DNA from: Candidatus Pacearchaeota archaeon
GTDB lineage: Archaea > Nanobdellota > Nanobdellia > Pacearchaeales > GW2011-AR1
Direction: 5' to 3'
DNA length: 64,000 nt
NCBI GenBank assembly: GCA_016204145.1
Contig: JACQLK010000016.1
Coordinates: forward strand, 9,181 to 73,180
Shown here in pieces: positions 1,637-62,708 of the stretch; the first letter of the stretch is position 1, and every line of letters begins with the position of its first letter. Position numbers and translations under genes: made by a program. The notes beneath the pieces are model-generated. The model worked only from the letters and a program-made list of their open reading frames with translations. It was not told where the DNA came from and made no database searches.

Positions 1637-1773
1637 TAAAAATTCTAGAAAGTAAAGTTTGTTGCTTCGCAAAATTCAGAGATTAGATTAATTCTGCCAA
1701 ATTTCTCGCTGAGAAAAAATTTAATCCAAAAAGAGTTTATCGCATCATCTATATCGTCATCGGTAATTTTTAT

Positions 1774-1836
1774 CACATTAATCTTCCCTTGGCGTAGCAC
1801 CTTAACGGAGTTTGGTGCGGAGCAATAAATATCCGA
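1774..1836. repeat. ~60-nt conserved motif (copy 1 of 2, inverted relative to 52752..52795)
   Basis: reverse complement gatatttattgctccgcaccaaactccgttaaggtgctacgcc matches 52752..52795 gatatttattgctccgcgcctgactccgtcgtggtgctccgc. Confidence 0.45.
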
Positions 1837-1983
1837 ACGAAGTGAAGCAAATTTTTTAATGGAATAAGTTTTGTTGTCAAATCAAATTTGTTTTCTTGGG
1901 ACGGGCCGGCAATTTCGCATCCCTTCGGTAAAAATAATTATGATTAAAATAAATTATCCTATCGTTATAGCGTCGGTTTTGCC

Positions 1984-2096
1984 AGTTAACATTGGCTTGT
2001 TGGAAGGGTGGGCGGGTGGGAACGAACCCAGGCGGGATTGGCGGTGGGATAAACAAAATGAGGGGTTGCGAGTAGTGAGCTGTGGACGGTGGGAGA
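1984..2096 (+). repeat. G-rich intergenic repeat, copy A (GTTAACA module + perfect G4 motif GGGTGGGCGGGTGGG at 2006..2020)
   Basis: agttaacattgg..gggtgggcgggtggg..ggcggg..ggtggg..gaggggttgcgag; G-rich island in AT-rich intergenic DNA, shares modules with copies at 12245, 18628, 24059, 29609, 30993, 42698, 52699, 52856, 54389, 62603. Confidence 0.6.
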
Positions 2097-2118
2097 GAAA
2101 AAATATTTTGGAATAAAT

Positions 2119-3250: not shown

Positions 3251-3856
3251 TTATTTCCCCTTGCTCAAATCCAAATAATCGTCATCGGAAGGCGGAGGCA
3301 TGTCCTTCACGTCGGAAATCTTCGCGTCTTGAATTAAATTGAAATCCGCTCTTATTATCGCGTTATCGGCGCCTTTTTCCGGCTTTCTCAGCCGTATTCC
3401 AAGATACTGCTCGATTTTTTTTATCAGCAACAAGCTTTTTTCCGGAACATAGCCGATTTCAAGCGTCTTTATCGCAATCTCCGGCTCCCTGAGCGCTTTT
3501 GCGAGCTGTTCTTGAGTCATCTTTCTTGCTCTTCTGGCGCGCATTATGACCCAGTGAAAATTCATTATAAGGGAATTCTTCAAACTAAAGTCCTCTTTGA
3601 GGTTTTGCTTGAAATTCCTTTCAACGATATTCCTCAACGTCACATCTTCCTGTTTTTGCGGTCTTGCGTACGGATTTCTCGCGACATTGACCTGCGGCTT
3701 CGGTCGGTTATCCTCTTCCGGCTTCGGGGTTCTTATTATCGGAATTTCCTCGACAATGGAGCATCTTCTGCAAACTTTCACTATCCCTCTTGAAGAAATC
3801 GCGTCAAACAAAATCGCCCTCTCATCCGAAACCCCGCACTTGAAGCATTCTGCCAT
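3251..3856 (-). CDS. MBF1-like transcription regulator (N-terminal Zn ribbon + C-terminal XRE-type HTH)
   Basis: CFKCG..CRRCS zinc ribbon then HTH segment MTQEQLAKAL..IKTLE. Confidence 0.5.
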   Translation of the reverse strand: MAECFKCGVSDERAILFDAISSRGIVKVCRRCSIVEEIPIIRTPKPEEDNRPKPQVNVARNPYARPQKQEDVTLRNIVERNFKQNLKEDFSLKNSLIMNFHWVIMRARRARKMTQEQLAKALREPEIAIKTLEIGYVPEKSLLLIKKIEQYLGIRLRKPEKGADNAIIRADFNLIQDAKISDVKDMPPPSDDDYLDLSKGK

Positions 3857-12146: not shown

Positions 12147-12244
12147 AAATAACGACGATGCTCCAACCTTGGCGTTTCCCTTGAAAAGAGAAATTTGCAA
12201 AAGGATAATATGCAAAAAATATTTATCAGTGCATAATTAATTTG

Positions 12245-12294
12245 ATGGGGGATTGTAAGTTAAAATTTATTTCTGTTTCCGTGGGGCGGGCGGG
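12245..12294 (+). repeat. G-rich intergenic repeat, copy B
   Basis: tgggggattgtaagttaaaatttatttctgtttccgtggggcgggcggg; ~70 nt upstream of NAC start; shares gattgtRRgttaaaatttRttt with copy J. Confidence 0.55.
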
Positions 12295-12364
12295 AAAGAA
12301 ACAAGAGAGTTAAAAAAATATTTCCAACAGAAAACCATAAAAACCTTTTTAATTTTCCTTTAAA

Positions 12365-18459: not shown

Positions 18460-18627
18460 AAGAAACAGATTATCCGAAAAAGTGAATGTGCAAACCGCAT
18501 TTAAAATCCAAAAGAACATGTTTCTCAATTCCTCGCTGATGAAAAAATGTTAATATCCAATCAAACTATAACATCGAAATGTTTTTTGGAATTAACCCTG
18601 TTTCATCTGCAATAGGCAATTTTTTAT

Positions 18628-18660
18628 TTTGCGCGGGGAGGAGCAACACAGGGGTGATGA
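18628..18660 (+). repeat. G-rich intergenic repeat, copy I (degenerate)
   Basis: ttttgcgcggggaggagcaacacaggggtgatg. Confidence 0.4.
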
Positions 18661-23948: not shown

Positions 23949-24058
23949 CCACTTCTAAAAAAAGTGAAATATAAAAATGCTTTGTTGAAAAAGATTTAGG
24001 CAAGATACGGCATTGAAATGCCGTCAAGTTGCGCAAAAACATATGACGGTGGTTTTTT

Positions 24059-24100
24059 AGTTAACATTTGTTTTTGCGGGGCGGGGAGTTTCGGATGGGA
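24059..24100 (+). repeat. G-rich intergenic repeat, copy C
   Basis: agttaacatttgtttttgcggggcggggagtttcggatggga, ~110 nt upstream of the MetRS start. Confidence 0.5.
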
Positions 24101-24113
24101 GAATTAAATTCAA

Positions 24114-24557: not shown

Positions 24558-24727
24558 GCGGCTTTGGTCTAATGGCATGACGTCACCTTCCCATGGCACT
24601 TTTCACTGAAGGTGAAAAAGGCATAAGCGGAATTCGCAAGAATTCTGGCTACGAGCATTTTTTCAGAAAATGCGGAAATGATTCTCGGAAAAAGGTGGCT
24701 GCGCGGGTTCGATTCCCGCAAGCCGCA
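24558..24727 (+). tRNA. intron-containing tRNA, anticodon probably CCC (Gly); ~98-nt intron at canonical 37/38 position (approx 24594..24691)
   Basis: acceptor GCGGCTT/AAGCCGC, T-arm GCGGG-TTCGATT-CCCGC, anticodon stem TCACC/GGTGG only pairs across a ~98-nt insert; intron contains cGGAATTCgcaaGAATTCtg hairpin with GNRA loop. Confidence 0.6.
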
Positions 24728-29471: not shown

Positions 29472-29608
29472 AATAATTTTGCGCGGGAATTGTTGAAATA
29501 TGTTAATGTAAAATTATAATAAAAATATTAATATTATCGCGTCGGTTTTGCATTAACATCGGTCTCTAAGAGAAGGTAGGCGGAATAAATTTGAAAAATC
29601 AAAATTTG

Positions 29609-29670
29609 ATTGTGGGTTAAAATTTGTTTTGAACCGGGATTTTTGGCGGCGGGACAAAACTTATAAATTA
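29609..29670 (+). repeat. G-rich intergenic repeat, copy J (with TATA-like ttataaatta)
   Basis: gattgtgggttaaaatttgttttgaaccgggatttttggcggcgggacaaaacttataaatta, ends 10 nt before surface-protein ATG. Confidence 0.45.
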
Positions 29671-29679
29671 TAGTTCTTA

Positions 29680-30909
29680 ATGAATGAAATGAAAAGAGGT
29701 TTGAACGTTCTCGTTTTAGTTGCATTTTTGCTCGCGTTTCAAATTGTTCCCGTTTCCGCAGACCCTTCTTTTTCCCCGTCATCATTTTCAATCAGCCCGG
29801 GACAAAATTCATCTTTTACAATTACGATAACAAATCCAGACACTTACGCGGACACGGGATTGGCAACAAACATTACAAGAGTAAACATTACTCTTCCTTC
29901 AAGCGTTGTTTTTGTCAGCGGGACGGAAAGCACCGACTCCGCCTCGGCATTTTCAGCGACTGCAAATGTTTTGTCATGGGACAATTCTTCTTATGTCATC
30001 GGCTCATCGACAGGGGGAGACAACGTGAAAACGTTTTCATTTGTCGCAAACGCAACAACTTTGGGAATCCTCGCAATTGTCGTGAGAACAATGAACTCGA
30101 CGACGACAACGACAAAAAATATTTCCCTCACTGTCTCGGACTCTGTCGCTCCGCAAGTAACGCTCGTCAGCCCGGAGAACAACAATGAAGATGCCGACGG
30201 GGTTCTCGTATTCAGCTGCAACGCAACAGACAACCTCGCGCTAAACTCAATGAAACTTGCAATTTACTTCAACGACAGCGAAACATACGGCAACAGCATA
30301 AGCGTAAACGGAACGGCAAGCAATCAGTCAAGTTGGGATTACACATTTAACTCAAACGGAGAATACAAATGGAACTGCTTCGCAAACGACACCGCGGGAA
30401 ATTCCGCATGGGCTTCAAACAGAACGATAAAAATAGACGCGCTTTCATTGTCGGCGCAGGCATGCGCCTCAAACTGGACATGCGCTAACTGGAGCGTTTG
30501 TTCAAACGGAACTCAAACAAGAACTTGCACTGATGCAAACTCCTGCGGAAACGTAACTGGAAAGCCGGCTGAAACGCAAACGTGCACTCCCCCTTGCGCT
30601 TCGTCGTGGAAATGCGCCGATTGGACCCCCGCAAAATGTCCAAAAGATGGAAAACAAACAAGAACTTGCACGGATGCAAACGCGTGCGGCGACTTGTCGG
30701 GAAAACCGTCTGAATCCCTGACTTGCGAATACAAAAGTTCAATTGGAATTTTTGTCGCCGCGGGAATAATCCTTGCTCTGATAGCGGGCAGTGTCGGAGC
30801 GTTTTTTTATCTGAGGAAAAACAAAGTCGATGAATTGTATCCGCAATCAACTGAAAACGCAAACCAAAATTATCCGCAAAATCAGGGATATAATTTCGAA
30901 TATTCTTGA
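29680..30909 (+). CDS. surface/cell-envelope protein: signal peptide, N-glycosylation sequon-rich region, two tandem 6-Cys modules, C-terminal TM anchor
   Basis: signal MNEMKRGLNVLVLVAFLLAFQIVPVSA; tandem CASNWTCANWSVCSNGTQTRTCTDANSCG / CASSWKCADWTPAKCPKDGKQTRTCTDANACG; C-terminal IGIFVAAGIILALIAGSVGAFFYLRKN. Confidence 0.6.
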   Translation: MNEMKRGLNVLVLVAFLLAFQIVPVSADPSFSPSSFSISPGQNSSFTITITNPDTYADTGLATNITRVNITLPSSVVFVSGTESTDSASAFSATANVLSWDNSSYVIGSSTGGDNVKTFSFVANATTLGILAIVVRTMNSTTTTTKNISLTVSDSVAPQVTLVSPENNNEDADGVLVFSCNATDNLALNSMKLAIYFNDSETYGNSISVNGTASNQSSWDYTFNSNGEYKWNCFANDTAGNSAWASNRTIKIDALSLSAQACASNWTCANWSVCSNGTQTRTCTDANSCGNVTGKPAETQTCTPPCASSWKCADWTPAKCPKDGKQTRTCTDANACGDLSGKPSESLTCEYKSSIGIFVAAGIILALIAGSVGAFFYLRKNKVDELYPQSTENANQNYPQNQGYNFEYS

Positions 30910-30992
30910 ATTGTTCAATAAGTCATCACAATAAAATCTGCATCGCTTCGCTCATTATAAAAAAAATAATAACCCTAAATCTACTGATTTAT

Positions 30993-31040
30993 GTTAACAT
31001 TGGTTTCCGGGGGTGGGCGAGTTAGGGGACTTGGCGATGG
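30993..31040 (+). repeat. G-rich intergenic repeat, copy D
   Basis: gttaacattggtttccgggggtgggcgagttaggggacttggcgatgg, ~100 nt upstream of TBP. Confidence 0.55.
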
Positions 31041-31141
31041 ATAAGGAAAATATTTTGTTTAAGAAATAATTGAATTCTGTAATTTTTAAACAAAGCAAAA
31101 TATTCCTGAAGGTTTATAAATAACTTTTTCTTTAAAAAGCC

Positions 31142-35263: not shown

Positions 35264-35423
35264 CCCATTAAATCAAAAAGAAAATTTAAAAACCTTTATT
35301 CGGAGTTGTTGGTTAACATTTATTTTTGCAGGCAACTGGAAACTTACCATGCAATTGGAATTTATTTTTATTATTTTTTCTCAGGAGAATGAGAGGGATA
35401 AAAAAATAAATCTGACAAAATTC

Positions 35424-37999: not shown

Positions 38000-38219
38000 T
38001 TTAATTTAACTGGAAAAAGCAGCTTCGCAATAATGATTGCTCAATATGGGAAGAAAATTAATTGCAAAAAGCATAATGACGCTGAACGGATTTAACATTA
38101 ATTTCCGTTTCCGCAGGACGGAAATCTTTTTGCGGGATTAAAATTTTCCAAGTAGATTGGAGGAGCGATTTCAGAAAAAATATTTAAACTTCTTTAGGTT
38201 GTTATAAAAAAGGGGTAAA

Positions 38220-38987: not shown

Positions 38988-39211
38988 TGTGCTCTGAACT
39001 TCCCAGGGGAGATTCTTTGCCGATTTTAAAAAAGATTAATGCAATAAAAATTTTCCGAAGATTATATAAGATGATGGCGCGATGAGTTCTTTTGAATATT
39101 AAAACGATTTTATCATCTCACAATTTCTTTCTGATTTTTGACCGTGAGCAACTTGCCAAACAATTGAAATTTATGATGTATTTTATCTTTTGGCGCTCCG
39201 TGTTGGATAGT

Positions 39212-39735
39212 GAAAAACCCCATGGCAAGACCATAGGGCATCAGAAAAAATCCATTAATGCTAACTGACTATTTTTTCTTCCTTGATTTTTTATGTAATT
39301 TCTGATTATCTCCGCGTTGATTCCTTCACCTACTGTGCTGACGTAACCACAATCCCTCCAAAACTCTCCGCCCCACAAGTCCTTTTTCAGTTCAGGATAT
39401 TGTTCAAATAGTTTTCTGGCAGTTATGCTTTTCACAATTCTGAAAAGCTGAGATGGGGAATATTTCGGAACGGACTGAAGCAGGAAGTGAACATAATCCT
39501 CGTCAAATCCAATCGTTTCAAGATTCATCGTGTATCTTTTTTGCATTTCTTCGCAGATGGTTTTGAAAGTTTCTGTATATTTTTTCTGCAAGAACAAATC
39601 TTTTCTATATTTTATGACAAAGACAAAGTGATACTTTATTCTGAAAACTTTATGATATGATTTGAAAAGTTCATCCATGCAGAAGTTACGTTCTACAAAC
39701 TTATAGGTTTATCCCTGTGCCAAGAGCACAGGGTA
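39212..39735. mobile_element. IS200/IS605-family insertion sequence (TnpA only) with subterminal hairpins
   Basis: TnpA ORF flanked by hairpins ccccatggcaagaccataggg (39217..39238) and ccctgtgccaagagcacaggg (~39712..39732). Confidence 0.7.
39241..39678 (-). CDS. tnpA: IS200/IS605 Y1 transposase TnpA
   Basis: YHFVFVIKYRK, HuH motif YVHFLL, catalytic Y in GYVSTVG region, 145 aa. Confidence 0.85.
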   Translation of the reverse strand: MDELFKSYHKVFRIKYHFVFVIKYRKDLFLQKKYTETFKTICEEMQKRYTMNLETIGFDEDYVHFLLQSVPKYSPSQLFRIVKSITARKLFEQYPELKKDLWGGEFWRDCGYVSTVGEGINAEIIRNYIKNQGRKNSQLALMDFF

Positions 39736-39937: not shown

Positions 39938-41155
39938 ATGAAGCAAAAAATCCGCGTTCTTGTCGCGATGTCGGGCGGCGTTGATTCTTCCGTTGCAGCG
40001 CTGATGATGAAGAAAAACGGCTTTGACGTGCTCGGCGTTTTCATGAAAAATTACTCCGACACAAAAAATGAACTCGGGGAATGCAGTTGGAAAGACGAAA
40101 GAAAAATGGCGATGAAGATTTGTTCTTTGCTTGGAATTCCCCTAATCACTCTGGACTTTGAAAAACAATACAAAAAACAAGTCATTGAAAAAATGTTCCG
40201 CGATTACAAAAAAGGAATAACTCCCAATCCAGACATTGATTGCAACCGGAAAATAAAATTCCCGTTGCTGATAAAGGCGATGAAAAAACTCAGAGCTAAA
40301 TATATTGTGACAGGACATTATTCAAGAATAAAGAAAACAAAAAATAATCTAAGATTGTTTCGCGCGCGCGACGAAATGAAAGATCAAAGTTATTTTCTTT
40401 ATCGCCTTAATCAAAATGAGTTAAAGCACCTGAAATTCCCGATTGGCGATTTCACAAAAAAACAAGTTCGCGAGATTGCAAGAAAAAATAATTTCCCTAA
40501 TTTCGACAAGAAATCTACGGTCGGAATCTGTTTTGTCGGAAAAGTAAATTTAAAAAGATTTCTTCAGAAAAAAATAAAGCCGAAGAAGGGAAAAATCATC
40601 TCTCCCGACGGAAAAGTCATCGGAGAGCATGACGGAATTTATTATTACACAATCGGACAACGCCTCGGCTCAAGATACGGGATAAACATCTCAAAGGACA
40701 CCGATGACAAACGGTTTTTGAAAAGATGGTATGTCGCAAGAAAAGACGCGAAAACAAACGCAATAATCGCCGCGCCGGAAAATCATCCGCTGCTTTTCAG
40801 AAAAGAAATTTTCATAAAAAACACGCATTGGATAAATAAAGATGAAATTGAAAAATTGATTTCTTCCGGTGAAAGGACTGGTTCAAAATCAAAAATCAGG
40901 AAAATATTTGCGAACGAAGTAAGCAACAATTTTGGGGAGGGCGGTCGGGGGATTGGCGGAGGGATTAATGAAAAAAATTTCAATGTCCTCGCGCGAATCC
41001 GCCAAGTCGGAGAATTGCTTCCGTGCAAAATTATTTTTGGAAAAAAAATAAAAGTTGCTCTCAAAAAACCAATTACCGGCGTCAGCGAAGGTCAAGCAAT
41101 AGTTATTTACAAAGGAAAAGAAGTTTTAGGCGGAGGAGAAATTTGTTTTAATTAA
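39938..41155 (+). CDS. mnmA: tRNA 2-thiouridylase MnmA
   Basis: PP-loop VAMSGGVDSS, catalytic Cys region GICFVG; 405 aa with Gly-rich insertion GEGGRGIGGGI. Confidence 0.85.
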   Translation: MKQKIRVLVAMSGGVDSSVAALMMKKNGFDVLGVFMKNYSDTKNELGECSWKDERKMAMKICSLLGIPLITLDFEKQYKKQVIEKMFRDYKKGITPNPDIDCNRKIKFPLLIKAMKKLRAKYIVTGHYSRIKKTKNNLRLFRARDEMKDQSYFLYRLNQNELKHLKFPIGDFTKKQVREIARKNNFPNFDKKSTVGICFVGKVNLKRFLQKKIKPKKGKIISPDGKVIGEHDGIYYYTIGQRLGSRYGINISKDTDDKRFLKRWYVARKDAKTNAIIAAPENHPLLFRKEIFIKNTHWINKDEIEKLISSGERTGSKSKIRKIFANEVSNNFGEGGRGIGGGINEKNFNVLARIRQVGELLPCKIIFGKKIKVALKKPITGVSEGQAIVIYKGKEVLGGGEICFN

Positions 41156-42536: not shown

Positions 42537-42697
42537 TTTAATATCCTTGTTAAGATTTTGAGAAATCTGCCACAATTATTTGAAAAAGGGTTGATGTAAA
42601 TCCGCATTCTGGACATTAATGGAAAAGATTGTTAGTCGGCGCGAATTTGATAGGACTATGCTGGCAACAATTTTATGACCGATTAAACGTGGTTGGA

Positions 42698-42800
42698 TAT
42701 TCACGTCTGTTTCCGCGGGGCGGACGGCGGGCAACTTTGCGAGACAAAATTGCAAAACTCACAACGAGCGAAGTTGCGAGTTAGGGGATTGGAGGAAGGA
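42698..42800 (+). repeat. G-rich intergenic repeat, copy E (G-run + ~70-nt ttGCGAG module)
   Basis: tgtttccgcggggcggacggcgggcaactttgcgagacaaaattgcaaaactcacaacgagcgaagttgcgagttaggggattggaggaagg; ~90% identical to module in copy F. Confidence 0.6.
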
Positions 42801-42818
42801 TTTTGAAAAATTTTAATC

Positions 42819-45199: not shown

Positions 45200-45661
45200 T
45201 TTGACCTCCTTTCATAATTTTACTCCTTTTTCTGAATGAAATTCAGAACTATTGCAATTTATTGGATAATGATTTTTTAAATCTTTATGTGATGCGTTAT
45301 ATCTGAATTTTTAGACACTTCGCGCCAAAATTGCCAATAGAATTAATATTTTTCATGGAAAAGATGAATGCCTTTTCTTTAAATAATTTTAGTTACTCAA
45401 GAAATCGGTGAAATCGGGGATTTTTTGGAAAATTTTGCGGGATTTTCCGCAAAAAACGGGAAAAATTTTATTTTTATGAATTATTTTTTATCCATTTTAA
45501 TTGATAAGAAATTTTTTGATTGTTATCTGAAAAAATTTTAACGTAAAATCCTGATTATAAATATTAACAGCAGTTGTTGATTAACATAAATTTTGGAGCG
45601 TGGGATTTTTTATTTTCTTCTTGGCAGATGAACTGAACAAATTTAACCCGTCAAAAACATT

Positions 45662-47034: not shown

Positions 47035-47820
47035 ATGGAAGACGTGGAAAGATTTTTCAGGCAAATCAGGAAGGCGAGAAACGACATAAAAGTCGACAGA
47101 AAGAATTTTTGGAGCAAGAACAGGATAAATTTCAAGAATAACATAAAAACCCTTGTCTCGTTTTTCAAGTTTCCGGACGGCTGGACTGTAAATGTCATCG
47201 CCTCGTCGTTTTTATTGGACAAACCGTCGATGCCTTATGACAAGGATATCTGGAGTTTCTCAGACGTTGTCGCCGCGACAGAAAACCAGGGACACGACAT
47301 TATCCTGTTTTTCAACAAAGGCGACTTGGAGTTTCTTTCAGCTCCCGCGCTTCTCCCAATCATAGTCCATGAAGTGAGGCACATTTACCAAGCGGCTGAA
47401 AATCCGAAAAAATACGTGCAAGCAACTGTAAACGACGAGTTAAGCCGCGAGTATGAAACGGGCGCCGACGCTGAAGTAAGAAAATACAGCGACGAATTTC
47501 GCAGGGAAAATGTCCTTGAAAAAATAATGTTCTGCTATGACGAACGCGGATGGAACGGCGCGAAAAAAATGGCCGACTACCTTCACATGGAAGCGCAGGA
47601 CTCTTTCGGCGGCGGATACGACCAATCAATGAACAAGGAAGAATACGAAACGTTCCTGAAAGCGATGGAAGAAAGAGACATAGACCTTTTCGTCGACTAT
47701 TTCATAAAAAGCATAGGCGGAGAAGAAGCCCAAAAAGAAGGTCAGGAAGTAAAAAAATTCGTCAGGGAATCAAAAATAAAAAAATTCATAAAAAACATCG
47801 TCGCAAAAAAGTCGGCTTGA
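47035..47820 (+). CDS. hypothetical protein with HExxH motif (possible Zn metallopeptidase)
   Basis: IIVHEVRHIYQAAE; its last ~15 codons and 3' flank are duplicated at 50706..50793. Confidence 0.45.
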   Translation: MEDVERFFRQIRKARNDIKVDRKNFWSKNRINFKNNIKTLVSFFKFPDGWTVNVIASSFLLDKPSMPYDKDIWSFSDVVAATENQGHDIILFFNKGDLEFLSAPALLPIIVHEVRHIYQAAENPKKYVQATVNDELSREYETGADAEVRKYSDEFRRENVLEKIMFCYDERGWNGAKKMADYLHMEAQDSFGGGYDQSMNKEEYETFLKAMEERDIDLFVDYFIKSIGGEEAQKEGQEVKKFVRESKIKKFIKNIVAKKSA

Positions 47821-47866
47821 GATGATTATGTTTTGTAAATGAGCCATTGAGGAATTCCGAGAAGTT
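47781..47866 (+). repeat. left direct repeat (~90 nt) bounding a 2.9-kb island
   Basis: aaaattcataaaaaacatcgtcgcaaaaaagtcggcttgagatg...gtaaatgagccattgaggaattccgagaag, ~85% identical to 50706..50793. Confidence 0.7.
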
Positions 47867-49149: not shown

Positions 49150-49635
49150 ATGCCTGTCAAATCAGCATTGAAGTCAAGAATCATCGACGAGAAAGACAAA
49201 AAGATACTTGCGGTTCTTCAGGAAAACGGAAGGGAACAACTTAATAAAATTGCAAAGAAAGTCGGCTTGAGCATTGACTCAACACACAAAAGAATTAAGG
49301 TAATGATTGAGAAAGGAGTTTTTCACCCGACAATTTTAATTGACCCTCGTATAATCGGATTTCCTCTGGTTGCAGACGTTAAAATAAAACTGAAAAACAT
49401 AGAACAAAAGGATTTGGATAGGTTTATTTCTCATCTTAAAAATCATCCGCGATGCATTGAACTTCTCTCAATAATGGGCGACTACGATTTCACTTGCGTT
49501 CTAATTGCCAAGGACGGAGACGAACTTGAAAAATTATCAACGGAAATAAGGCAAAAATTCAAGGATTTGATTGACGAATGGAAAAGCAATTTGGTTTTGA
49601 AAACGCACAAGTTTGAGGAATATGATTTGGAATAA
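49150..49635 (+). CDS. Lrp/AsnC-family transcriptional regulator
   Basis: N-terminal HTH (DKKILAVLQENGREQLNKIAKKVGLSIDSTHKRIK) + C-terminal RAM-like domain. Confidence 0.8.
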   Translation: MPVKSALKSRIIDEKDKKILAVLQENGREQLNKIAKKVGLSIDSTHKRIKVMIEKGVFHPTILIDPRIIGFPLVADVKIKLKNIEQKDLDRFISHLKNHPRCIELLSIMGDYDFTCVLIAKDGDELEKLSTEIRQKFKDLIDEWKSNLVLKTHKFEEYDLE

Positions 49636-50602: not shown

Positions 50603-50705
50603 ATTATTAATTCGTTTATTTTCGCCTTAATTATCCCTAATTTCACAGCCACGCCGCTCAATAAACTTCTTCAGATAATTTTCGCAAAAAAAATTATCGC
50701 GAGAA

Positions 50706-50793
50706 AAAATTCATAAAAAACATCGTCGCAAAAAAGACGGCGTGAGATGGAAATCAATTTTGGTAAATAAGCCGTTGAGGAATTTCGGGAAAG
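50706..50793 (+). repeat. right direct repeat bounding the 2.9-kb island; contains a remnant of the 47035..47820 C-terminal coding tail
   Basis: aaaattcataaaaaacatcgtcgcaaaaaagacggcgtgagatg... would encode KKFIKNIVAKKTA* like the end of 47035..47820 (KKFIKNIVAKKSA*). Confidence 0.7.
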
Positions 50794-52622: not shown

Positions 52623-52698
52623 GATTTTATCAGGAAACGAGATTTTTTTAAGGTTTGGGTTTATAATTTTAAAAGAAATCTTCTATGAAGTATTTTGT

Positions 52699-52712
52699 TC
52701 CCGCCCGCCTCC
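52699..52712 (-). repeat. G-rich repeat, copy K (reverse orientation, C-rich on + strand)
   Basis: cccgcccgcctcc; revcomp ggaggcgggcgggaaca resembles copy H ggaggc..gggcgggcgggatgaaca; ~80 nt upstream of FtsY start. Confidence 0.45.
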
Positions 52713-52751
52713 TATGAAACCTTAATAATCTCTAAAATTTGCTTTCGCTTC

Positions 52752-52795
52752 GTTCAGATATTTATTGCTCCGCGCCTGACTCCGTCGTGGTGCTC
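52752..52795 (+). repeat. ~60-nt conserved motif (copy 2 of 2; partner at 1774..1836)
   Basis: gatatttattgctccgcgcctgactccgtcgtggtgctccgc. Confidence 0.45.
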
Positions 52796-52855
52796 CGCTA
52801 AAGAAAAATACTAATGTGAAAACTCTGTCTTATCATCATATCGTCGCATCATCAT

Positions 52856-52976
52856 TCTTTCTCCTGGGGGCGGGGACAAATTTATCAAGTAAATTTTTGG
52901 AACGCGAGTAGGCGAGCAACTTTGCGAGACAGAATTGCAAAACTCACAACGAGCGGGGTTGCGAGTCGGGGAATTG
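52856..52976 (+). repeat. G-rich intergenic repeat, copy F (most complete: G-run + BRE/TATA-like module + ttGCGAG module)
   Basis: cctgggggcggggacaaatttatcaagtaaatttttggaacgcgagtaggcgagcaactttgcgagacagaattgcaaaactcacaacgagcggggttgcgagtcggggaattggaggaag. Confidence 0.65.
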
Positions 52977-53040
52977 GAGGAAGAATGATCCAATAAGTTA
53001 AATCTAAATTTTTATAAACAACAGTTGTTTTTGCTTTTCC

Positions 53041-54291
53041 ATGAAAGGCGTTTTGATTATCCTCGACGGAATCGGCGACTTGCCGTGCAAAATTCTCAAC
53101 GATAAAACTCCTCTCGAGGCCGCCGAAACGCCGAATTTGGATTTCATTTCAAATCGCGGAGAGCTCGGAGGAATGGTTCCCGTAAAAATAGGATTCATTC
53201 CCGAATCCGACGAAGCGACTGTTTCAATTTTCGGAAACGAAATTTCAAGCAGCACAAGAGGGCAATTGGAAGCAAGGGGAACGGACATAAAACTTGTCCG
53301 CGGCGACTTGGCTCTGCGAGCAAACTTCGCGACAATTGATTCCACGGAGAGAAAAAATATAATTGACAGAAGAGCCGGAAGAACCCTCGCGACAAAAGAG
53401 GCGGAAACTCTCGCGGAAGCGCTGAACAAAATAAAAATGCCGTGCGATTTCATTTTCAAGCCGACGATACAGCATCGCGGCGTTTTGGTTTTCAAAGGGG
53501 GATTCTCGGACAACATTTCCGGAAACGATTCTTCATATACAAAAAACAAACTGCGCGGAATTGAAAAAATAAATGAAATTCGCGCGCTTGATGAAAATGA
53601 AAACTCGCAATACGCCGCAAATATCGTGAACGAATTTCTTGAAAAAGCGTTCATGACCCTTGACAAGCATCCTCTTAACGAAGAAAGAAAAAGAAAGGGG
53701 TTGATGCCGGCGAATTATCTTCTCGTGCGCGGAGCCGGAATTGAAACGCCAAAATTGAAATTTTACAGAAAATGGGCCGCTGTTTGTTATATGCCGACGG
53801 AAATCGGCTTCGCAAAAACGTCCGGAATGAGCGTGTTCTCCTTCAAATATCCGGAAATGAAAAACCTCGACGTTTACAAAAATCTTTACGACGGATTGAG
53901 GGAAGCGTGCGATTTCTCGGTAAAAACAATTGAGAAAAACCGGAAAAAATACGATTATTTTTACGTTCACATAAAAGAAACAGACGTTCCGGGACACGAC
54001 AACAAGCCCGTTGAGAAAAAAATGATGATAGAGCAAATTGACAAAATACTTTTCAAGTTCCTGAAAAAATCAATCGATTCGGACAAGAATTTGAAAATTA
54101 TCGTTACCGGAGATCATTCGACTCCGTGCAGAATGAAATCGCATTCCGCCGAGCCGGTTCCTGTTTTATTTTATTCCGGAGAAGGAAAAGCGCCAAAGGA
54201 AAAAAGATTCTGCGAGAGAGACGCCATGGGCGGAAAATTGGGAATGATTTCCGGAAAAGACCTTTTGGAAAAAACCGGATTTGAAAAATAA
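53041..54291 (+). CDS. apgM: 2,3-bisphosphoglycerate-independent phosphoglycerate mutase, archaeal type (ApgM)
   Basis: MKGVLIILDGIGDLP N-terminus and TGDHSTP near C-terminus, 416 aa. Confidence 0.8.
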   Translation: MKGVLIILDGIGDLPCKILNDKTPLEAAETPNLDFISNRGELGGMVPVKIGFIPESDEATVSIFGNEISSSTRGQLEARGTDIKLVRGDLALRANFATIDSTERKNIIDRRAGRTLATKEAETLAEALNKIKMPCDFIFKPTIQHRGVLVFKGGFSDNISGNDSSYTKNKLRGIEKINEIRALDENENSQYAANIVNEFLEKAFMTLDKHPLNEERKRKGLMPANYLLVRGAGIETPKLKFYRKWAAVCYMPTEIGFAKTSGMSVFSFKYPEMKNLDVYKNLYDGLREACDFSVKTIEKNRKKYDYFYVHIKETDVPGHDNKPVEKKMMIEQIDKILFKFLKKSIDSDKNLKIIVTGDHSTPCRMKSHSAEPVPVLFYSGEGKAPKEKRFCERDAMGGKLGMISGKDLLEKTGFEK

Positions 54292-54388
54292 TTTTTGATT
54301 TATCAGTAAACTTCGTAAGAATTATTAAAAAGAGGTTAGTGTAAAATAACTTCAAGTCACTCCTAATCATATTCAATTCGGATTTGGA

Positions 54389-54480
54389 GTTAACACGGGT
54401 TTCGCGGGGAGGGAGGGTGGGGACAAATTTATCAAGTAAATTTTTGGAACGCGGGCGGTCGGGAATTACTCGCGGAATTT
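54389..54480 (+). repeat. G-rich intergenic repeat, copy G (GTTAACA + perfect G4 GGGGAGGGAGGGTGGGG at 54406..54422 + BRE/TATA-like module)
   Basis: gttaacacgggtttcgcggggagggagggtggggacaaatttatcaagtaaatttttggaacgcgggcggtcggg; 38 nt identical to copy F. Confidence 0.65.
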
Positions 54481-54537
54481 TAAGAATTTTCCATCCGTAT
54501 TCTTGATGACGAAAATTCTTAAAAACAAACTTTCTTT

Positions 54538-55134: not shown

Positions 55135-56964
55135 ATGAAAAAAGAAATTGCGCTGATTTTTGTTTGCGTTTTGCTCGCTTCCGTAATTTCCGCTTCGTTA
55201 ATTTCCGCGGATTTTTTCGGAAGCTGGTTTGCAAAATCAACCGGAAACGCCGTGGCTGCAAAGTGCGTCGATTCGGACGGCGGGAAGGACTATTACAAAA
55301 AAGGAACAACATCCGGAATTGACGCGAAGACGAAAAAGCAAACAAGTCAAGTTGATAAATGCTCAAATTCCAAAACTCTTGTTGAATTTTTCTGCGATGC
55401 GAATAATAGGGTCGCGAGCGCTTCCGCTTCATGCAAAAAAGGATGCGGCTCCGGAGCGTGCGCTGAAATCGCCCCTGCTGCAGCTCCGTCGAAAAAATCA
55501 AGCGCGGCGCAAACGGTCGATAAATCCGGAAGTTTGATGTTTACAACAACTCATTCCGGAATAGGGGACATGTACACATATTATCTGATTTATGACAACG
55601 CAAATTACATTATTCAATCGGGCGATTTCCTCGAATATGACATTTACTGCGACCCTTCAAACAACGATTGCACCGGCGGAATAGAAATAGAGGGAATTTA
55701 CCCTTCGGCATGGGTCGGAAGAAATTTGCGTTTAGTCGACCAAAACCGGTTATCAAATGCGTACGGCAATATTTCCATGTATGCAAGCGGAAAATGGTAT
55801 CATCGAAGAATTAACTTGTCGAGTGCTGTCGGCAAAACTGTAAAAGAAGTCAGCGTAGTCGAAGAAAGCGACAGGGACGGAAAAAGGGATTACTATTACA
55901 GAAATATTGCAATCACAAACGGCGGAATTCTGAAGGTTCCCTTTTACAAAGGAAAAAATGTTCAATCAAGCGCGTTGAACTACCAATCAAAAGCGAGCAG
56001 GTATTCCGTTGCTGCAATCGGCGGAAGTTCATTTGAGATTCAAAAAACATGTCGGCAAATAATAACTCTGACATACCAACTGTCAAAGAGCGAGTGTTCT
56101 CCCGGAGACATAATAAGCGACTTGCAAACCCACACTCAATGCGACCATTATGTCAACGTTCCTTACGGCGGAAAAGTGTGTTATTCGTGGCGCAGCTACC
56201 ATAATTACAATTGCATAAGAAATACTCAAATATCTTGCTCTGCAAACGCCGCCTGTCCTGCGGGGACAACTGAAATAACTTCAGAATATTGCGGCGCGTC
56301 CATTGTGGCAATTGGCGGGGAAATAGGATTCACTCCTTCAAGAATATGGATTTCCGACGACAATAGCGGATGGCAGAAAACCCGTTCAACAATCTTTTCT
56401 TCATATCCCGACGGGGCGAGGATATCTGCAACAGGAGCCGACTGGAATATCGCTCGTCAGGTCTCGTTCTGGGGAAAAGACAATTATCTTGTGGGGATAA
56501 AATACAAGTGGGTAAGCGGCGGCTCGTCGCTTCCGGACCAGCTTTATTACTCGACAAAAAGTCACGGGGACTCGATAAATTTCAGGCAACCTTTCGGAAA
56601 ATGGGAAACGGACGGAAACTGGCATGTTAAAATTCTCGATATGAGAACCCTGGCTGCGGGGGGAAACGACTGGATAAACGGTGAAATCACAAGATTAAGA
56701 TTTGACTTTACTGAAAATGCAGATACCGTTATGGAAATACAATATATTGCAATTGGAAAATATCCGAATACAAGCATATGCGCGCCCGCAAACAAATGCA
56801 TCGGCAATTCAGGAGAGTATTGCAATGACAAAAATGCAATCGCAAGCGTCTCTTCTTTCCAGGAAACATGCAACGACGGAAGGGACGATAACTGCAACGG
56901 ACAAGTGGATGAAGATTGTCCGTCTCTCGAGGAGGACAATCCGAACGACGGCGGAGGAGAATAA
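55135..56964 (+). CDS. large secreted Cys-rich protein
   Basis: signal peptide MKKEIALIFVCVLLASVISASLISA, N-terminal CVDSDGGKDYY motif, C-terminal CNDGRDDNCNGQVDEDC acidic Cys motif, 609 aa. Confidence 0.55.
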   Translation: MKKEIALIFVCVLLASVISASLISADFFGSWFAKSTGNAVAAKCVDSDGGKDYYKKGTTSGIDAKTKKQTSQVDKCSNSKTLVEFFCDANNRVASASASCKKGCGSGACAEIAPAAAPSKKSSAAQTVDKSGSLMFTTTHSGIGDMYTYYLIYDNANYIIQSGDFLEYDIYCDPSNNDCTGGIEIEGIYPSAWVGRNLRLVDQNRLSNAYGNISMYASGKWYHRRINLSSAVGKTVKEVSVVEESDRDGKRDYYYRNIAITNGGILKVPFYKGKNVQSSALNYQSKASRYSVAAIGGSSFEIQKTCRQIITLTYQLSKSECSPGDIISDLQTHTQCDHYVNVPYGGKVCYSWRSYHNYNCIRNTQISCSANAACPAGTTEITSEYCGASIVAIGGEIGFTPSRIWISDDNSGWQKTRSTIFSSYPDGARISATGADWNIARQVSFWGKDNYLVGIKYKWVSGGSSLPDQLYYSTKSHGDSINFRQPFGKWETDGNWHVKILDMRTLAAGGNDWINGEITRLRFDFTENADTVMEIQYIAIGKYPNTSICAPANKCIGNSGEYCNDKNAIASVSSFQETCNDGRDDNCNGQVDEDCPSLEEDNPNDGGGE

Positions 56965-62351: not shown

Positions 62352-62602
62352 AATTATTTATTAAAATTTCGCGCTGCCGATTGCAATATTAATTGCTCTT
62401 GCAAAATGAAAAGTATTGGTTGAAATATTGCATTTAAATTCCTGCCAAGTTGCATAAAACAAGTTAATGAAAAAATCCAAAGCCGCTCCGCTAATGCTCG
62501 CTTGTGGAAAAGATATTAATCCAAAATTTATCACCCCATCATCCCGTATAAATCGTCGGTAGTTCTTATTGAATCAACTCTTTCCTTCAGCGAAAATTCT
62601 GC

Positions 62603-62630
62603 CGGAGGCAAATTTCGGGGGGCGGGCGGG
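62603..62630 (+). repeat. G-rich intergenic repeat, copy H
   Basis: ggaggcaaatttcggggggcgggcggg. Confidence 0.45.
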
Positions 62631-62708
62631 ATGAACAAAAAATGCCCCGAATTGCTTTTTAAAAATTCTAAATTTCATTTCCGTGCCGTTTAAATTCTTT
62701 CTTGAAAT

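What the first reader, a model, noticed from the sequence alone, without database searches (positions are those of the whole stretch)
52623..53040. Dispersed family of >=11 modular G-rich intergenic repeats; three elements crowd the FtsY/ApgM divergent region
In a genome that is visibly AT-rich, short G-rich islands recur in intergenic DNA at 1984, 12245, 18628, 24059, 29609, 30993, 42698, 52699 (reverse), 52856, 54389 and 62603. They are built from reusable modules: (1) aGTTAACAyKGGyTTyCG (copies A, C, D, G; B and E carry tgtttccg without the GTTAACA); (2) runs GGGG-C-GGG(G)-C-GGG; (3) ggggacaaatttatcaagtaaatttttggaacgcg, identical in F and G and degenerate in J, which looks like BRE+TATA; (4) a ~70-nt gcaactttgcgagacaRaattgcaaaactcacaacgagcgRRgttgcgagt..ggRattggaggaag segment (E, F, part of A). 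Ten of eleven are G-rich on the + strand. Six of those sit upstream of + strand genes (NAC, surface protein, TBP, ApgM, GINS-like, and distantly the intron-tRNA). The one reverse copy sits upstream of the - strand ftsY. Orientation therefore tracks the downstream gene for the promoter-proximal copies, while four copies (A, E, I, H) lie between convergent gene ends. This 418-nt spacer alone holds copy K, the unrelated 60-nt motif L2 and copy F. This looks like a regulon-wide cis element or small-RNA family rather than chance.
Basis: seen in the sequence. Interest (0 to 1): 0.75.

Follow-up and report, generated by a model that had tools for sequence, protein, structure and literature searches.

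The report
Strand-polar mosaic intergenic repeats, Pacearchaeota
A small uncultivated archaeon (Pacearchaeota) carries a real, lineage-specific family of short non-coding G-rich repeats that fills almost every long gap between genes, nearly always points the same way along the chromosome and comes and goes between close relatives, so it looks more like fast-spreading repeat DNA than a conserved gene switch.

Summary
The G-run GGGGCGGGCGGG (≤2 mismatches) occurs 12 times against 1.4 expected, 11 of them on the + strand. All reported loci exist, and I found three more (35302, 38091, 45571).

The elements share a roughly 95-nt core with fixed spacing: Box1 TTGAAAAAnTGTTAATGTAAA, Box2 AATATTAAT, Box3 GTTAACATTGGTTTTTG, then the G-run. 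Optional modules follow it.

- **Orientation** does not follow the neighbouring genes. It is + in 13 of 14 cases, including three copies between two – genes and four between convergent genes.
- **Conservation** is poor at matching positions in close relatives (80–92% protein identity). Copy number and arrangement differ, and one copy is a 200-nt insertion with a 12-nt duplication, confirmed by an empty site.
- **Range** is narrow. The family is absent from relatives at ≤73% identity and from 758 kb of control DNA.
- **RNA** evidence is negative. The core has no conserved structure and no Rfam match.

My best reading is a lineage-specific, duplicative mosaic repeat family. Its polarity matches the inferred replication direction. 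Some copies carry promoter-like boxes. An IS200-type transposase lies in the window, but its hairpins are not in the repeats.

The parts
1977..2104 (+). Element A: Box3 (GTTAACATTGG), a four-tract G-run at 2006-2020, GGGATTGGCGG, a partial module 4 (GGGGTTGCGAGT), and the 3' motif GAAAAAATATTT.
   Evidence: G4Hunter score 1.6. Lies between convergent genes.
1729..1862 (+). P module (TTTATCGC..CATCATC..TATATCGTC) followed by a sense copy of L2 (1770-1855). It sits upstream of element A in the same spacer.
12250..12323 (+). Element B: Box3 variant GTTAAAATTTATTT, TGTTTCCG, and an exact GGGGCGGGCGGG. It is flanked by AAAAAATATTT at 12214 and 12313.
   Evidence: The flanking word is also the usual 3' motif of the family, so it is not secure as a target duplication.
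18586..18660 (+). Element C, a weak and degenerate member (GGAATTAACCC .. GCGCGGGGAGGAGC).
   Evidence: Core HMM E=0.73 only.
24047..24105 (+). Element D: Box3 plus GGGGCGGGG. It lies between two - strand genes (MetRS and a 130-aa ORF).
   Evidence: G4Hunter score 1.8.
29488..29585 (+). Element H1: a full core (Box1, Box2, Box3) with a degenerate G-run, directly after the DNA ligase gene.
   Evidence: Core HMM E=2.6e-13 (it is a training member). Alignment.
29603..29668 (+). Element H2: Box3 variant plus GGCGGCGGGAC, abutting the BRE/TATA box (AAAACTTATAAAT) of the surface-protein gene.
   Evidence: PWM 12.3. Conserved in L012 (52 nt, 94%) and partly in L015.
30911..31098 (+). Element I. With one repeat copy it forms a 200-nt insertion, flanked by the direct repeats AATATTCTTGAA (30899-30910) and AATATTCCTGAA (31099-31110). 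The G-rich core is at 30985-31060.
   Evidence: Empty site in L012: the surface-protein stop codon directly abuts the TBP TATA box, and only one repeat copy is present.
35302..35378 (+). Element X35 (new): Box3 plus the GCAACT..GCAATTGGAATTTATTTTT module, G-poor. It lies between two - strand genes (VKOR, SRP54).
   Evidence: The spacer is 1 nt in L005, 160 nt here and about 280 nt in L012.
38091..38186 (+). Element X38 (new, degenerate): TTTAACATTAATTTCCGTTTCCG .. GATTGGAGGAG .. AAAAAATATTT.
39030..39083 (-). P module copy. It is 96% identical over 54 nt to a non-orthologous P copy in L004.
39218..39733 (-). Context: an IS200/IS605-type element. tnpA is at 39241-39678, flanked by the hairpins CCCTGTGC-TCTTG-GCACAGGG and CCCTATGG-TCTTG-CCATGGGG.
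   Evidence: PF01797 E=5.5e-32. NF033573 scores 124.7 bits; the REP-associated transposase model scores below its cut-off. Hairpins. PDB relatives are ISDra2 and IS608 TnpA.
40923..40972 (+). A G-run plus GGGATTGGCGGAGGGAT inside the MnmA coding sequence, encoding GEGGRGIGGGI in a lineage-specific insert of about 40 aa. Possibly an in-frame element fragment.
   Evidence: (D14).
42575..42815 (+). Element E: Box1, Box2, a 60-nt insert, TGTTTCCG, a G-run, module 4 (42726-42801), and the 3' end GGGGATTGGAGGAAGG.
   Evidence: Lies between convergent genes.
45528..45612 (+). Element X45 (new): a core with a weak G-run, between two - strand genes (FtsZ and a metallo-beta-lactamase-fold protein).
   Evidence: Core HMM E=2.7e-6, not a training member. 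Also.
52698..52730 (-). Element K: ATTATTAAGGTTTCATAGGAGGCGGGCGGGAAC, the only reverse copy. It is the downstream tail of the inverted L2 unit.
   Evidence: L2 is followed by a T-run plus G-run in all three copies.
52734..52822 (-). L2, read in sense on the - strand. It has a central hairpin, GCACC..GAC-GGA-GTC..GGYGC.
   Evidence: (I1).
52860..52990 (+). Element F: G-run (52867), module 3 (52868-52906, palindromic AAATTTATCAAGTAAATTT), module 4 (52911-52986), and the 3' end GGGAATTGGAGGAAG. It lies upstream of the conserved ApgM TATA box at 53008.
54320..54470 (+). Element G: a full core, a four-tract G-run, module 3 (54415-54453), and a 3' end. It lies upstream of the conserved GINS TATA box at 54515.
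   Evidence: training member, E=4.9e-15. G4Hunter score 2.2.
62508..62655 (+). A P module and an L2-like leader, followed by element J (GGGGGGCGGGCGGGATGAAC at 62617). Lies between convergent genes.

Best explanation
These are members of a lineage-specific family of short (about 100-250 nt), non-coding, modular interspersed repeats. The family multiplies and rearranges within intergenic DNA by duplicative copy-and-insert events or recombination. It is not a set of conserved operator sites.

**Anatomy.** A full copy has a core of about 95 nt with fixed spacing:
- Box1, TTGAAAAAnTGTTAATGTAAA;
- about 25 nt further, Box2, AATATTAAT;
- about 20 nt further, Box3, GTTAACATTGGTTTTTG;
- then a G-run, GGGGCGGGYGGG.

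Optional modules follow the G-run: a promoter-like palindrome (module 3), module 4 or the GCAACTT..GCAATTGG module, and a purine-rich, A-rich 3' end.

**Behaviour.** Copies are tolerated only between genes. They account for nearly all long spacers and are gained, lost and tandemly duplicated on the time scale that separates relatives with 80-92% protein identity.

**Polarity (inferred).** The G-rich strand is almost always the + strand. From codon-third-position skew, gene-strand bias and the orientation of an IS200 element, I infer that the + strand is the lagging strand. My reading is that either spread is coupled to replication (a single-stranded or template-switch intermediate), or copies with the G-rich strand on the lagging-strand template are selected against.

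**Side effect (inferred).** Some copies bring promoter-like BRE/TATA boxes next to genes.

**Shown:** family reality, architecture, intergenic restriction, polarity, turnover, one insertion with a target duplication, and the lack of conserved RNA structure.

**Inferred:** the replication direction, the mechanism of spread and any regulatory effect.
For: 1. **Enrichment and restriction.** 12 G-runs against 1.43 expected. All 7 Box3 matches on the + strand are intergenic.
2. **Specificity.** The core HMM hits only the window and close relatives, all on the + strand. Non-training copies include 45528-45604 (E=2.7e-6) and L015 462-536 (E=2.5e-7). Nothing scores below E=0.1 in 61 kb of distant relatives or 758 kb of control loci.
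3. **Spacer length.** The five longest of 15 +/+ spacers and four of the six longest convergent spacers hold elements. Other spacers have a median of 24-84 nt.
4. **Turnover.**
   - Element I is a 200-nt insertion with a 12-nt direct repeat and a precise empty site in L012.
   - L012 has insertions of 250 nt and 165 nt that the window lacks.
   - The VKOR/SRP54 spacer is 1, 160 or about 280 nt in three genomes.
   - The nitroreductase 3' spacer holds different numbers and orders of elements in L136, L137 and L140.
   - ApgM and GINS core promoters are conserved while the upstream elements are swapped.
5. **Paralogues closer than orthologues.** The core identity matrix gives:
   - L012v against L012a, same genome: 85%;
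   - wH against L012a, orthologous site: 80%.

   Repeat pairs give:
   - modules 3 and 4 within the window: 97% and 89%;
   - P between non-orthologous sites of two genomes: 96%. Coding DNA is about 83%.
6. **Polarity independent of genes.** 13 of 14 copies are +, p=0.002.
7. **Replication direction.** The + strand component of GC3 skew is -0.08 (95% CI -0.12 to -0.04), with the same sign in all thirds of the window. There are 50 genes on - against 31 on +.
8. **No coding capacity, no conserved RNA fold, no Rfam hit**.
9. **Assembly breaks.** Independent short-read assemblies break inside modules 3 and 4 and the G-run.
Against: - No transposition machinery is linked to the family. Copies lack terminal inverted repeats, and they lack the hairpins that flank the only transposase in the window.
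- Only one of four resolvable junctions shows a clear target duplication. The 11-nt repeat around B is also a family 3' motif.
- Indels between relatives could partly be deletions.
- The fixed spacing of three RTTAAY boxes and the G-run looks like a protein-binding array, which suggests a function.
- H2 keeps its place next to a real promoter in the window and L012; in L015 the G-run sits about 30 nt further upstream.
- The replication direction is inferred from weak skews in a 64-kb piece. No second replichore was available to test whether polarity flips.
- Only about 85 kb from this clade could be examined.
Confidence: 0.5

Rival explanations
1. A family of small non-coding RNA genes or transcribed units. 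The P module (TTATATAAT-type TATA box) and module 3 act as promoters. They drive short + strand RNAs such as L2, module 4 and G-run-containing leaders, which act in trans or as antisense RNAs to convergent genes.
For: - P is 96% identical over 54 nt between non-orthologous sites of two genomes, well above the roughly 83% coding identity.
- The L004 copy of P-L2 folds with z=-3.2 and ends in a hairpin plus T-run.
- The L2 central hairpin is kept in 3 copies, with one compensatory pair.
- Module 3 scores like a real promoter.
- Module 4 folds well on the - strand, z=-4.2 and -3.2.
- Copies in convergent spacers need no promoter role for the flanking genes.
Against: - The shared core has no conserved structure (-1.15 kcal/mol).
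- + strand z-scores of whole elements run from -1.7 to +0.3.
- The two window copies of L2 fold no better than shuffles.
- Differences between the two module 4 copies favour opposite strands for different stems (reading).
- A, C and D have no promoter-grade box.
- There are no Rfam or C/D-box matches.
- Copies are not kept at orthologous sites.
Confidence: 0.15
2. A regulon-wide cis-regulatory element. One DNA-binding protein recognises the RTTAAY boxes and/or the G-run and co-regulates the downstream genes.
For: - Three RTTAAY boxes and the G-run keep a fixed spacing of about 25, 20 and 17 nt.
- G-runs often abut A-rich BRE/TATA-like sequence. In H2, F and G the run ends in GGGAC directly followed by AAA(A/T)(C/T)TTAT.
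- H2 is conserved next to the surface-protein promoter.
- An Lrp/AsnC protein (49150-49635) and an HTH protein (3251-3856) are encoded in the window.
Against: - Seven of 14 copies have no co-oriented downstream gene: four lie in convergent spacers and three are antisense between two - genes.
- There is no association with a + gene on the right, p=0.55.
- The flanking genes are unrelated housekeeping genes.
- The core promoters of ApgM and GINS lie downstream of the elements and are conserved while the elements are not.
- The family is absent from relatives at 62-73% identity that keep the same genes and synteny.
- Long stretches (39-76 nt) are 89-97% identical between copies, far more than a binding site needs.
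Confidence: 0.12
3. Functional strand-polar chromosomal signals. G-rich (G4-prone) elements are kept in one orientation relative to replication and placed after lagging-strand (head-on) transcription units. They would act as polar barriers, terminators, or recombination or segregation signals, comparable to Chi, KOPS or Ter.
For: - Polarity of 13 in 14 is independent of gene orientation.
- A consistent strand skew runs across the window.
- Elements lie preferentially downstream of + (inferred head-on) genes: 9/31 against 4/49, p=0.03.
- Six of the seven + strand G4Hunter peaks of 1.5 or more are family members. The seventh is the family-like G-run inside MnmA.
- A T-run precedes the G-run in most copies.
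Against: - Only 2 copies have four G-tracts. Several members (X35, X38, X45, H1) are G-poor.
- A functional signal should be conserved in position, yet copies turn over quickly.
- Known polar oligomers are short and occur in coding DNA too.
- No archaeal system of this kind is known (my knowledge).
- The replication direction is only inferred.
Confidence: 0.12
4. Non-autonomous elements mobilised in trans by the IS200/IS605 Y1 transposase encoded at 39241-39678, in the manner of PATE or REP/BIME elements. This would explain the strand polarity through insertion into the lagging-strand template.
For: - A Y1 transposase is present.
- Its coding (top) strand is the - strand, which is the inferred leading-strand sequence and lagging-strand template, as expected for this family (plus established IS608/ISDra2 biology).
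- The repeat family is strongly strand-polar.
- L2 has a hairpin and occurs in both orientations next to G-runs, like the REPs in BIMEs.
Against: - The hairpins that flank tnpA occur nowhere else in the window or the relatives.
- The core has no stable hairpin.
- The one secure insertion has a 12-nt duplication, which Y1 transposition does not produce.
- The protein reads YVH where the HUH motif should be (alignment). It scores as IS200, not as a REP-associated transposase (26 bits against a cut-off of 80).
Confidence: 0.08

Closest known systems
Bacterial interspersed mosaic elements (BIMEs, built from REP sequences) of enterobacteria and pseudomonads
   Same: Short, non-coding and strictly extragenic. 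They are built as mosaics of a few reusable modules and are often clustered or tandem. They sit after gene ends and between convergent genes, vary between strains, and a Y1 (IS200-like) transposase gene is present in the genome.
   Different: REPs are imperfect palindromes in alternating orientation, and a RAYT gene is flanked by them. Here the core has no palindrome or conserved fold and orientation is almost uniform. The Y1 protein is IS200-type with unrelated hairpins. The organism is a DPANN archaeon.
MITEs (miniature inverted-repeat transposable elements), including archaeal ones in Sulfolobus and methanogens
   Same: The size is similar (100-250 nt). They are non-coding and multi-copy, show presence/absence polymorphism, and one insertion has a target-site duplication.
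   Different: There are no terminal inverted repeats, no parent IS with matching ends, inconsistent duplications, a modular composition, and strong strand polarity.
IS200/IS605-derived palindrome-associated elements (PATEs), and the replication-coupled orientation bias of IS608/ISDra2
   Same: The orientation bias fits the inferred replication direction. An IS200-type tnpA is in the window.
   Different: There are no subterminal hairpins, no similarity to the ends of the resident IS, and a 12-nt duplication at the one secure junction.
Rickettsia palindromic elements (RPEs) and similar repeats of reduced genomes
   Same: An abundant short repeat family in a small symbiont-type genome. There may be an in-frame fragment inside a coding gene (MnmA 40923-40972).
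   Different: RPEs are palindromic and often sit inside genes. This family is almost entirely intergenic and is not palindromic.
Archaeal origin recognition boxes (ORB, with a G-string)
   Same: A G-string lies next to a conserved AT-rich box, with GTTTCC-like sequence before the G-run.
   Different: ORBs cluster in inverted pairs around an AT-rich unwinding region next to orc1/cdc6 (PMC4010727). These copies are spread over 62 kb in one orientation. No Orc1/Cdc6 match was found among the 71 ORFs scanned. There is no TCCA..TGGA dyad (ORB consensus from memory).

Membership tests
MITE | Terminal inverted repeats at both ends | tested here: not met
   Inverted-repeat search of five element regions found only weak, internal, AT-rich pairs and none at the ends.
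MITE | Target-site duplication of constant length | tested here: inconclusive
   Element I has a 12-nt duplication with an empty site in L012. Two L012 insertions show 0-3 nt. The 11-nt repeat around B is also a family 3' motif.
MITE | Ends shared with an autonomous IS in the genome | tested here: not met
   The only transposase found is IS200-type, and its end hairpins have no other copy. Only 64 kb of the genome was available.
REP/BIME with RAYT | Repeat unit is an imperfect palindrome (REP hairpin) | tested here: not met
   The consensus fold of 7 cores is -1.15 kcal/mol. Only the separate L2 module has a conserved hairpin.
REP/BIME with RAYT | REP-associated tyrosine transposase flanked by the repeats | tested here: not met
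   The Y1 protein scores 124.7 bits on the IS200 model and 26.4 bits (cut-off 80) on the REP_Tyr_transpos model. It is flanked by its own unique hairpins.
REP/BIME with RAYT | Extragenic mosaic of reusable modules | tested here: met
IS200/IS605-derived PATE | Subterminal hairpins recognised by TnpA, with no target duplication | tested here: not met
   No hairpins. There is a 12-nt duplication at element I.
IS200/IS605-derived PATE | Orientation bias relative to replication | tested here: inconclusive
   13 of 14 copies are on one strand and the strand skew is consistent. The replication direction is inferred, and no second replichore was seen.
Archaeal ORB / replication origin | Inverted ORBs clustered around an AT-rich region next to orc1/cdc6 | tested here: not met
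   Copies are dispersed from 1977 to 62655 in one orientation. No Orc1/Cdc6 family match was found among the 71 ORFs scanned.
Canonical G-quadruplex motif | Four G3+ tracts with loops of 1-7 nt | tested here: inconclusive
   Only A (2006-2020) and G (54397-54417) qualify. A G4Hunter-type score of 1.5 or more is reached in A, D, I, F, G and J, and also in the family-like G-run inside MnmA. X35, X38, X45 and H1 are G-poor. Folding itself cannot be tested with these tools.
Archaeal BRE/TATA promoter | Match to this genome's own promoter profile, about 25-40 nt upstream of a transcript or gene start | tested here: inconclusive
   The PWM was built from 56 upstream regions. H2 scores 12.3 and is the real surface-protein promoter. 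Module 3 scores 8.1, but it lies about 118-165 nt from the ATG, upstream of the genes' own TATA boxes. A, C and D have no hit. The threshold gives about 260 hits per strand.
Described structured RNA families (Rfam, including C/D-box sRNA) | Covariance-model match at or near the gathering score | tested here: not met
   Only tRNAs pass. The best hits on the elements have E>1 (sR20 14.6 bits against 44; SNORD111 19.2 against 46).
Chi/KOPS-type polar oligomers | A short strand-biased word spread through coding and non-coding DNA | tested here: not met
   Strand bias is present. However, the elements are 100-250 nt long, and 10 of 12 G-run hits are intergenic. The other two overlap at one site in MnmA.

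The most novel reading that the evidence does not exclude
The family is a previously undescribed kind of strand-polar element in DPANN archaea, under one of two readings.

1. It is a mobile element without hairpins or inverted repeats that spreads through a replication-coupled single-stranded or template-switch intermediate.
2. It is a functional polar signal. G4-prone runs are kept on the lagging strand at the downstream ends of head-on transcription units, and they manage encounters between replication and transcription.

Under either reading, polarity should flip at the replication origin and terminus.
Probability: 0.15. Interest if true: 0.75.

Novelty: new variant of a known kind. Interest (0 to 1): 0.5.

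Why it matters
DPANN archaea have tiny, densely packed genomes and are usually thought to carry little repeat DNA.

Here a repeat family occupies almost every long spacer, about one copy per 4.5 kb. It pushes apart genes that abut in relatives, differs between close strains and is almost perfectly strand-polar.

If this holds, it has four consequences:
- **Assembly.** It explains why assemblies of this clade fragment at these sites.
- **Strain typing.** It offers markers for strain typing and for inferring replication direction in uncultivated archaea.
- **Annotation.** It warns against reading recurrent intergenic motifs as regulons.
- **Mechanism.** It poses a concrete question: how does a repeat without hairpins or inverted ends spread in one orientation?

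If the polarity proves to be functional, it would be the first replication-oriented signal of this kind described in archaea, as far as I know.

Tried and rejected
**Searches that led nowhere**
- **Genome-contig scan with ApgM.** It returned only 4 loci at 62-66% identity. The source species is not among the representatives, and those loci lack the family.
- **Metagenome-contig scan.** I searched for the P module (TTATATAATC N8-14 TTTTATTGCA). The pattern was too AT-rich: 120+ chance hits, none matching a P/L2 profile. The scan was wasted.
- **Four viral-contig scans.** Modules 3 and 4, L2 and Box1-Box2 gave no true copies.
- **Rfam.** Gathering and permissive thresholds on the window, the spacer and the relatives returned only tRNAs.
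- **Literature.** Searches on Pacearchaeota repeats and on G-quadruplexes in DPANN archaea found nothing describing such a family.

**Ideas rejected**
- **C/D-box sRNA.** The GATGATG-rich P region lacks D and D' boxes.
- **Coding potential.** The 59-aa ORFs that overlap A and E are unrelated, and six-frame translations are full of stops.
- **DGR-type mutagenic homing** (G/C-run as an IMH). Variation between copies is not confined to adenines (reading).
- **Origin of replication at the FtsY/ApgM spacer.** The cumulative GC-skew minimum at about 52-53 kb follows the switch in gene strand. Element polarity does not flip there.
- **Terminator for upstream genes.** The 50 - strand genes have no matching - strand copies.

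**Limits**
- Iterated nhmmer on the 37-nt 5' module alone added little because the motif is too short.
- Direct repeats around A (10 nt) and E (9 nt) are no better than shuffles, p=0.13 and 0.17.
Full report
**Source and context.** ApgM (53041-54291) is 100% identical to a protein of a Candidatus Pacearchaeota MAG, on a contig of 76.7 kb. The window averages about 39% G+C. It carries housekeeping genes: RadA, ScpB, eRF1, LeuRS-type and MetRS synthetases, NAC, DNA ligase, TBP, SRP54, FtsZ, FtsY, ApgM, GINS, MCM and eIF2-beta. About 14% of the window is intergenic.

- All eleven loci are as described.
- GGGGCGGGCGGG with up to 2 mismatches occurs 12 times against 1.43 expected. No shuffle in 100 reaches 12, and 11 of the 12 are on the + strand.
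- All seven + strand matches to [GA]TTAACA[CT] are intergenic (p about 1e-6).
- The long module pairs are confirmed: 42726-42801 with 52911-52986 (76 nt, 89%), 52868-52906 with 54415-54453 (39 nt, 97%), and 52734-52822 inverted against 1770-1855 (89 nt, 81%).
- I found three more members at 35302, 38091 and 45528.
- Independent short-read assemblies of the same strain break inside module 3, module 4 and the G-run, as expected for multi-copy DNA.

**Anatomy.** Copies from the window and from close relatives align into a common core of about 95 nt.
- It starts with Box1, TTGAAAAAnTGTTAATGTAAAtCC.
- About 25 nt further comes Box2, AATATTAAT.
- About 20 nt further comes Box3, GTTGTnnGGTTAACATTGGTTTTTG.
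- About 17 nt after the TTAA of Box3 comes the G-run.

After the G-run come optional parts:
- module 3, which contains the palindrome AAATTTATCAAGTAAATTT;
- module 4, or a shorter GCAACTTGCC..GCAATTGGAATTTATTTTT module;
- a purine-rich end, GGGGATTGGAGGAAGG or GAAAAAATATTT.

Element I equals E with the inner part of module 4 missing.

A second unit shares the same spacers. It consists of the P module, which has a TTATATAAT box, followed by L2. In all three copies L2 is followed by a T-run and a G-run in its own orientation. The single reverse G-run, K, is therefore the tail of the inverted L2 unit in the FtsY/ApgM spacer, not a separate ftsY element.

**Specificity.** A profile of the core hits only the window and close relatives, always on the + strand. 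The hits include copies that were not used to build it: 45528-45604 (E=2.7e-6), L015 462-536 (E=2.5e-7) and L140 715-782 (E=5e-4). Nothing scores below E=0.1 in 61 kb from relatives at 62-73% ApgM identity, or in 758 kb of unrelated metagenome loci. G-run density is as follows:

| Sequence set | G-run hits | Size |
|---|---|---|
| Window | 12 | 64 kb |
| Close relatives | 5 | 20 kb |
| Distant relatives | 1 (inside a gene) | 61 kb |

**Orientation.** Elements lie in 5 of 15 +/+ spacers (exactly the five longest), 4 of 16 convergent spacers, 3 of 33 -/- spacers and 1 of 16 divergent spacers.
- Seven copies therefore have no co-oriented downstream gene.
- D, X35 and X45 are antisense between two - genes.
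- Thirteen of 14 copies are + (p=0.002). The core-type copies are 12 of 12.
- Presence goes with a + gene on the left (p=0.03), not on the right (p=0.55).
- Third-codon-position GC skew has a strand component of -0.08 (95% CI -0.12 to -0.04), with the same sign in each third of the window. Fifty genes are on - and 31 on +.

From these I infer that the whole window lies in one replichore with the - strand as leading strand. The G-rich strand of the elements is then the lagging strand. The IS200-type element at 39218-39733 has its coding strand on -, as expected from what is known of IS608 and ISDra2. That is consistent with the inference but is a single case.

**Comparison with relatives.** Protein look-ups gave syntenic pieces from six or seven related genomes:
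- L004 (ApgM 88% identical);
- L012 (surface protein 86%);
- L015 (surface protein 80%);
- L136, L137-139 and L140 (nitroreductase 88-92%).

These comparisons show the following.
1. The core promoters of ApgM (ATCTAAATTTTTATAAA) and GINS (ACGAAAATTCTTAAAAACAAAC) are conserved. The elements upstream of them are replaced by other family modules. L2 is in the opposite orientation in L004.
2. Element I is a 200-nt insertion. In L012 the surface-protein stop codon directly abuts the TBP TATA box. The window has AATATTCTTGAA and AATATTCCTGAA on either side of the insert, where L012 has a single copy.
3. L012 carries a 250-nt G-rich element next to tRNA-Val and a 165-nt element after tRNA-Thr. Both sites are empty in the window, and neither shows a clear duplication.
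4. The VKOR/SRP54 spacer is 1 nt in L005, 160 nt here and about 280 nt in L012.
5. The spacer after the nitroreductase gene holds one element here, two in tandem in L140, three in L137 and an inverted P module in L136.
6. The inserted L012 copy is most similar (85%) to another copy 3.7 kb away in the same genome, not to copies in other genomes.

All of this points to duplicative gain, loss and rearrangement on a short time scale.

**What it is not.**
- It is not coding.
- It matches no described RNA family.
- It has no conserved fold. The RNAalifold consensus for seven cores is -1.15 kcal/mol.
  - Whole-element z-scores on the + strand run from -1.7 to +0.3.
  - Module 4 folds better on the - strand (z=-4.2 and -3.2).
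  - The few differences between its two copies do not agree on a strand.
- It is not a MITE, because it has no terminal inverted repeats.
- It is not REP-like, because it has no palindrome.
- It does not carry the hairpins of the resident IS200 element.
- It is not an origin. Copies are dispersed and unidirectional, and no Orc1/Cdc6 match was found among the ORFs scanned (PMC4010727 for ORB organisation).
- It has no viral counterpart.

**G4 and promoter readings.**
- Only A and G have four G-tracts.
- Six of the seven + strand G4Hunter-type peaks of 1.5 or more are family members. The seventh is the family-like run inside MnmA.
- Several members are G-poor.
- I built a promoter profile from 56 upstream regions of this genome.
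  - H2 scores 12.3 and is the real surface-protein promoter.
  - Module 3 scores 8.1, about the median for real promoters.
  - Module 3 lies upstream of the genes' own TATA boxes.
  - A, C and D have no hit, and the profile is unspecific in this AT-rich DNA.

**Verdict.** The family is real and lineage-specific. The best explanation is a duplicative, mosaic intergenic repeat with replication-related polarity, and some copies carry promoter-like boxes.

The mechanism of spread is unresolved. One junction has a 12-nt duplication and two have none. No transposase is linked to the family.

The fixed box spacing and the very high conservation of P leave room for a protein-binding or RNA role. The regulon reading is the least consistent with the comparative data.

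The main limit is that only about 85 kb of this clade could be examined, all from one chromosomal region.

Noticed in passing
window 39218-39733 (-): A compact IS200/IS605-type element. tnpA (145 aa; PF01797 E=5.5e-32, NF033573 124.7 bits) is flanked by two related hairpins that share the loop TCTTG. In the alignment to ISDra2 TnpA the HUH motif reads YVH, so the enzyme may be impaired or atypical.
   Followed up: partly
window 40923-40972 (inside MnmA, 39938-41155): The strongest G4-type peak in the window lies in a coding region. It resembles element A (GGGATTGGCGG) and encodes GEGGRGIGGGI. It sits within an insert of about 40 aa that bacterial MnmA structures and more distant homologues lack. 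One 63% homologue has a similar Gly-rich insert. It may be an in-frame element fragment.
   Followed up: partly
window 55135-56964 (+): A 609-aa ORF lies between GINS and MCM, with only a weak MopE-type metal-binding motif. It is absent from L004, where GINS is followed directly by MCM. This is a 1.9-kb gene-content difference between close relatives.
   Followed up: no
window 39030-39083 (-) and L004 1414-1467 (+): The P module is 96% identical over 54 nt between non-orthologous sites of two genomes whose coding DNA is about 83% identical. It carries a strong TATA-like box (CTTATATAAT). It may be the promoter of the L2 unit.
   Followed up: partly
window 19892-22561 (-): An MmeI-like type IIL restriction-modification gene appears split into two ORFs (21113-22561 and 19892-20914), separated by 198 nt. 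It lies in a low-GC stretch (28% at 20-21 kb), so it is probably acquired and possibly decaying.
   Followed up: no
L012 4280-4470 and 2570-2713; window 24558-24727: tRNA-Val and tRNA-Thr of the 86% relative carry inserts of about 100 nt and about 23 nt, presumably introns, that are absent from the window's copies. The window has one intron-containing tRNA of 170 nt that ARAGORN misses and Rfam finds.
   Followed up: partly
window 47779-47824 and 50704-50749: A 46-nt direct repeat, 96% identical (AAAAAATTCATAAAAAACATCGTCGCAAAAAAG..). One copy is at the end of a gene and the other is in a 393-nt convergent spacer. It shares the ATCGTCGC word with the P module.
   Followed up: no
window 54478-54524: A 14-bp perfect inverted repeat (TTTTAAGAATTTTC .. 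GAAAATTCTTAAAA). Its right arm is the GINS TATA region. By eye, only the right arm is conserved in L004.
   Followed up: no
L001/L002 ends (window about 54406-54417): Logan contigs of the same strain end in the G-run of element G, followed by Nextera adapter sequence. This suggests that short-read assembly or sequencing stalls at these G-rich repeats.
   Followed up: no
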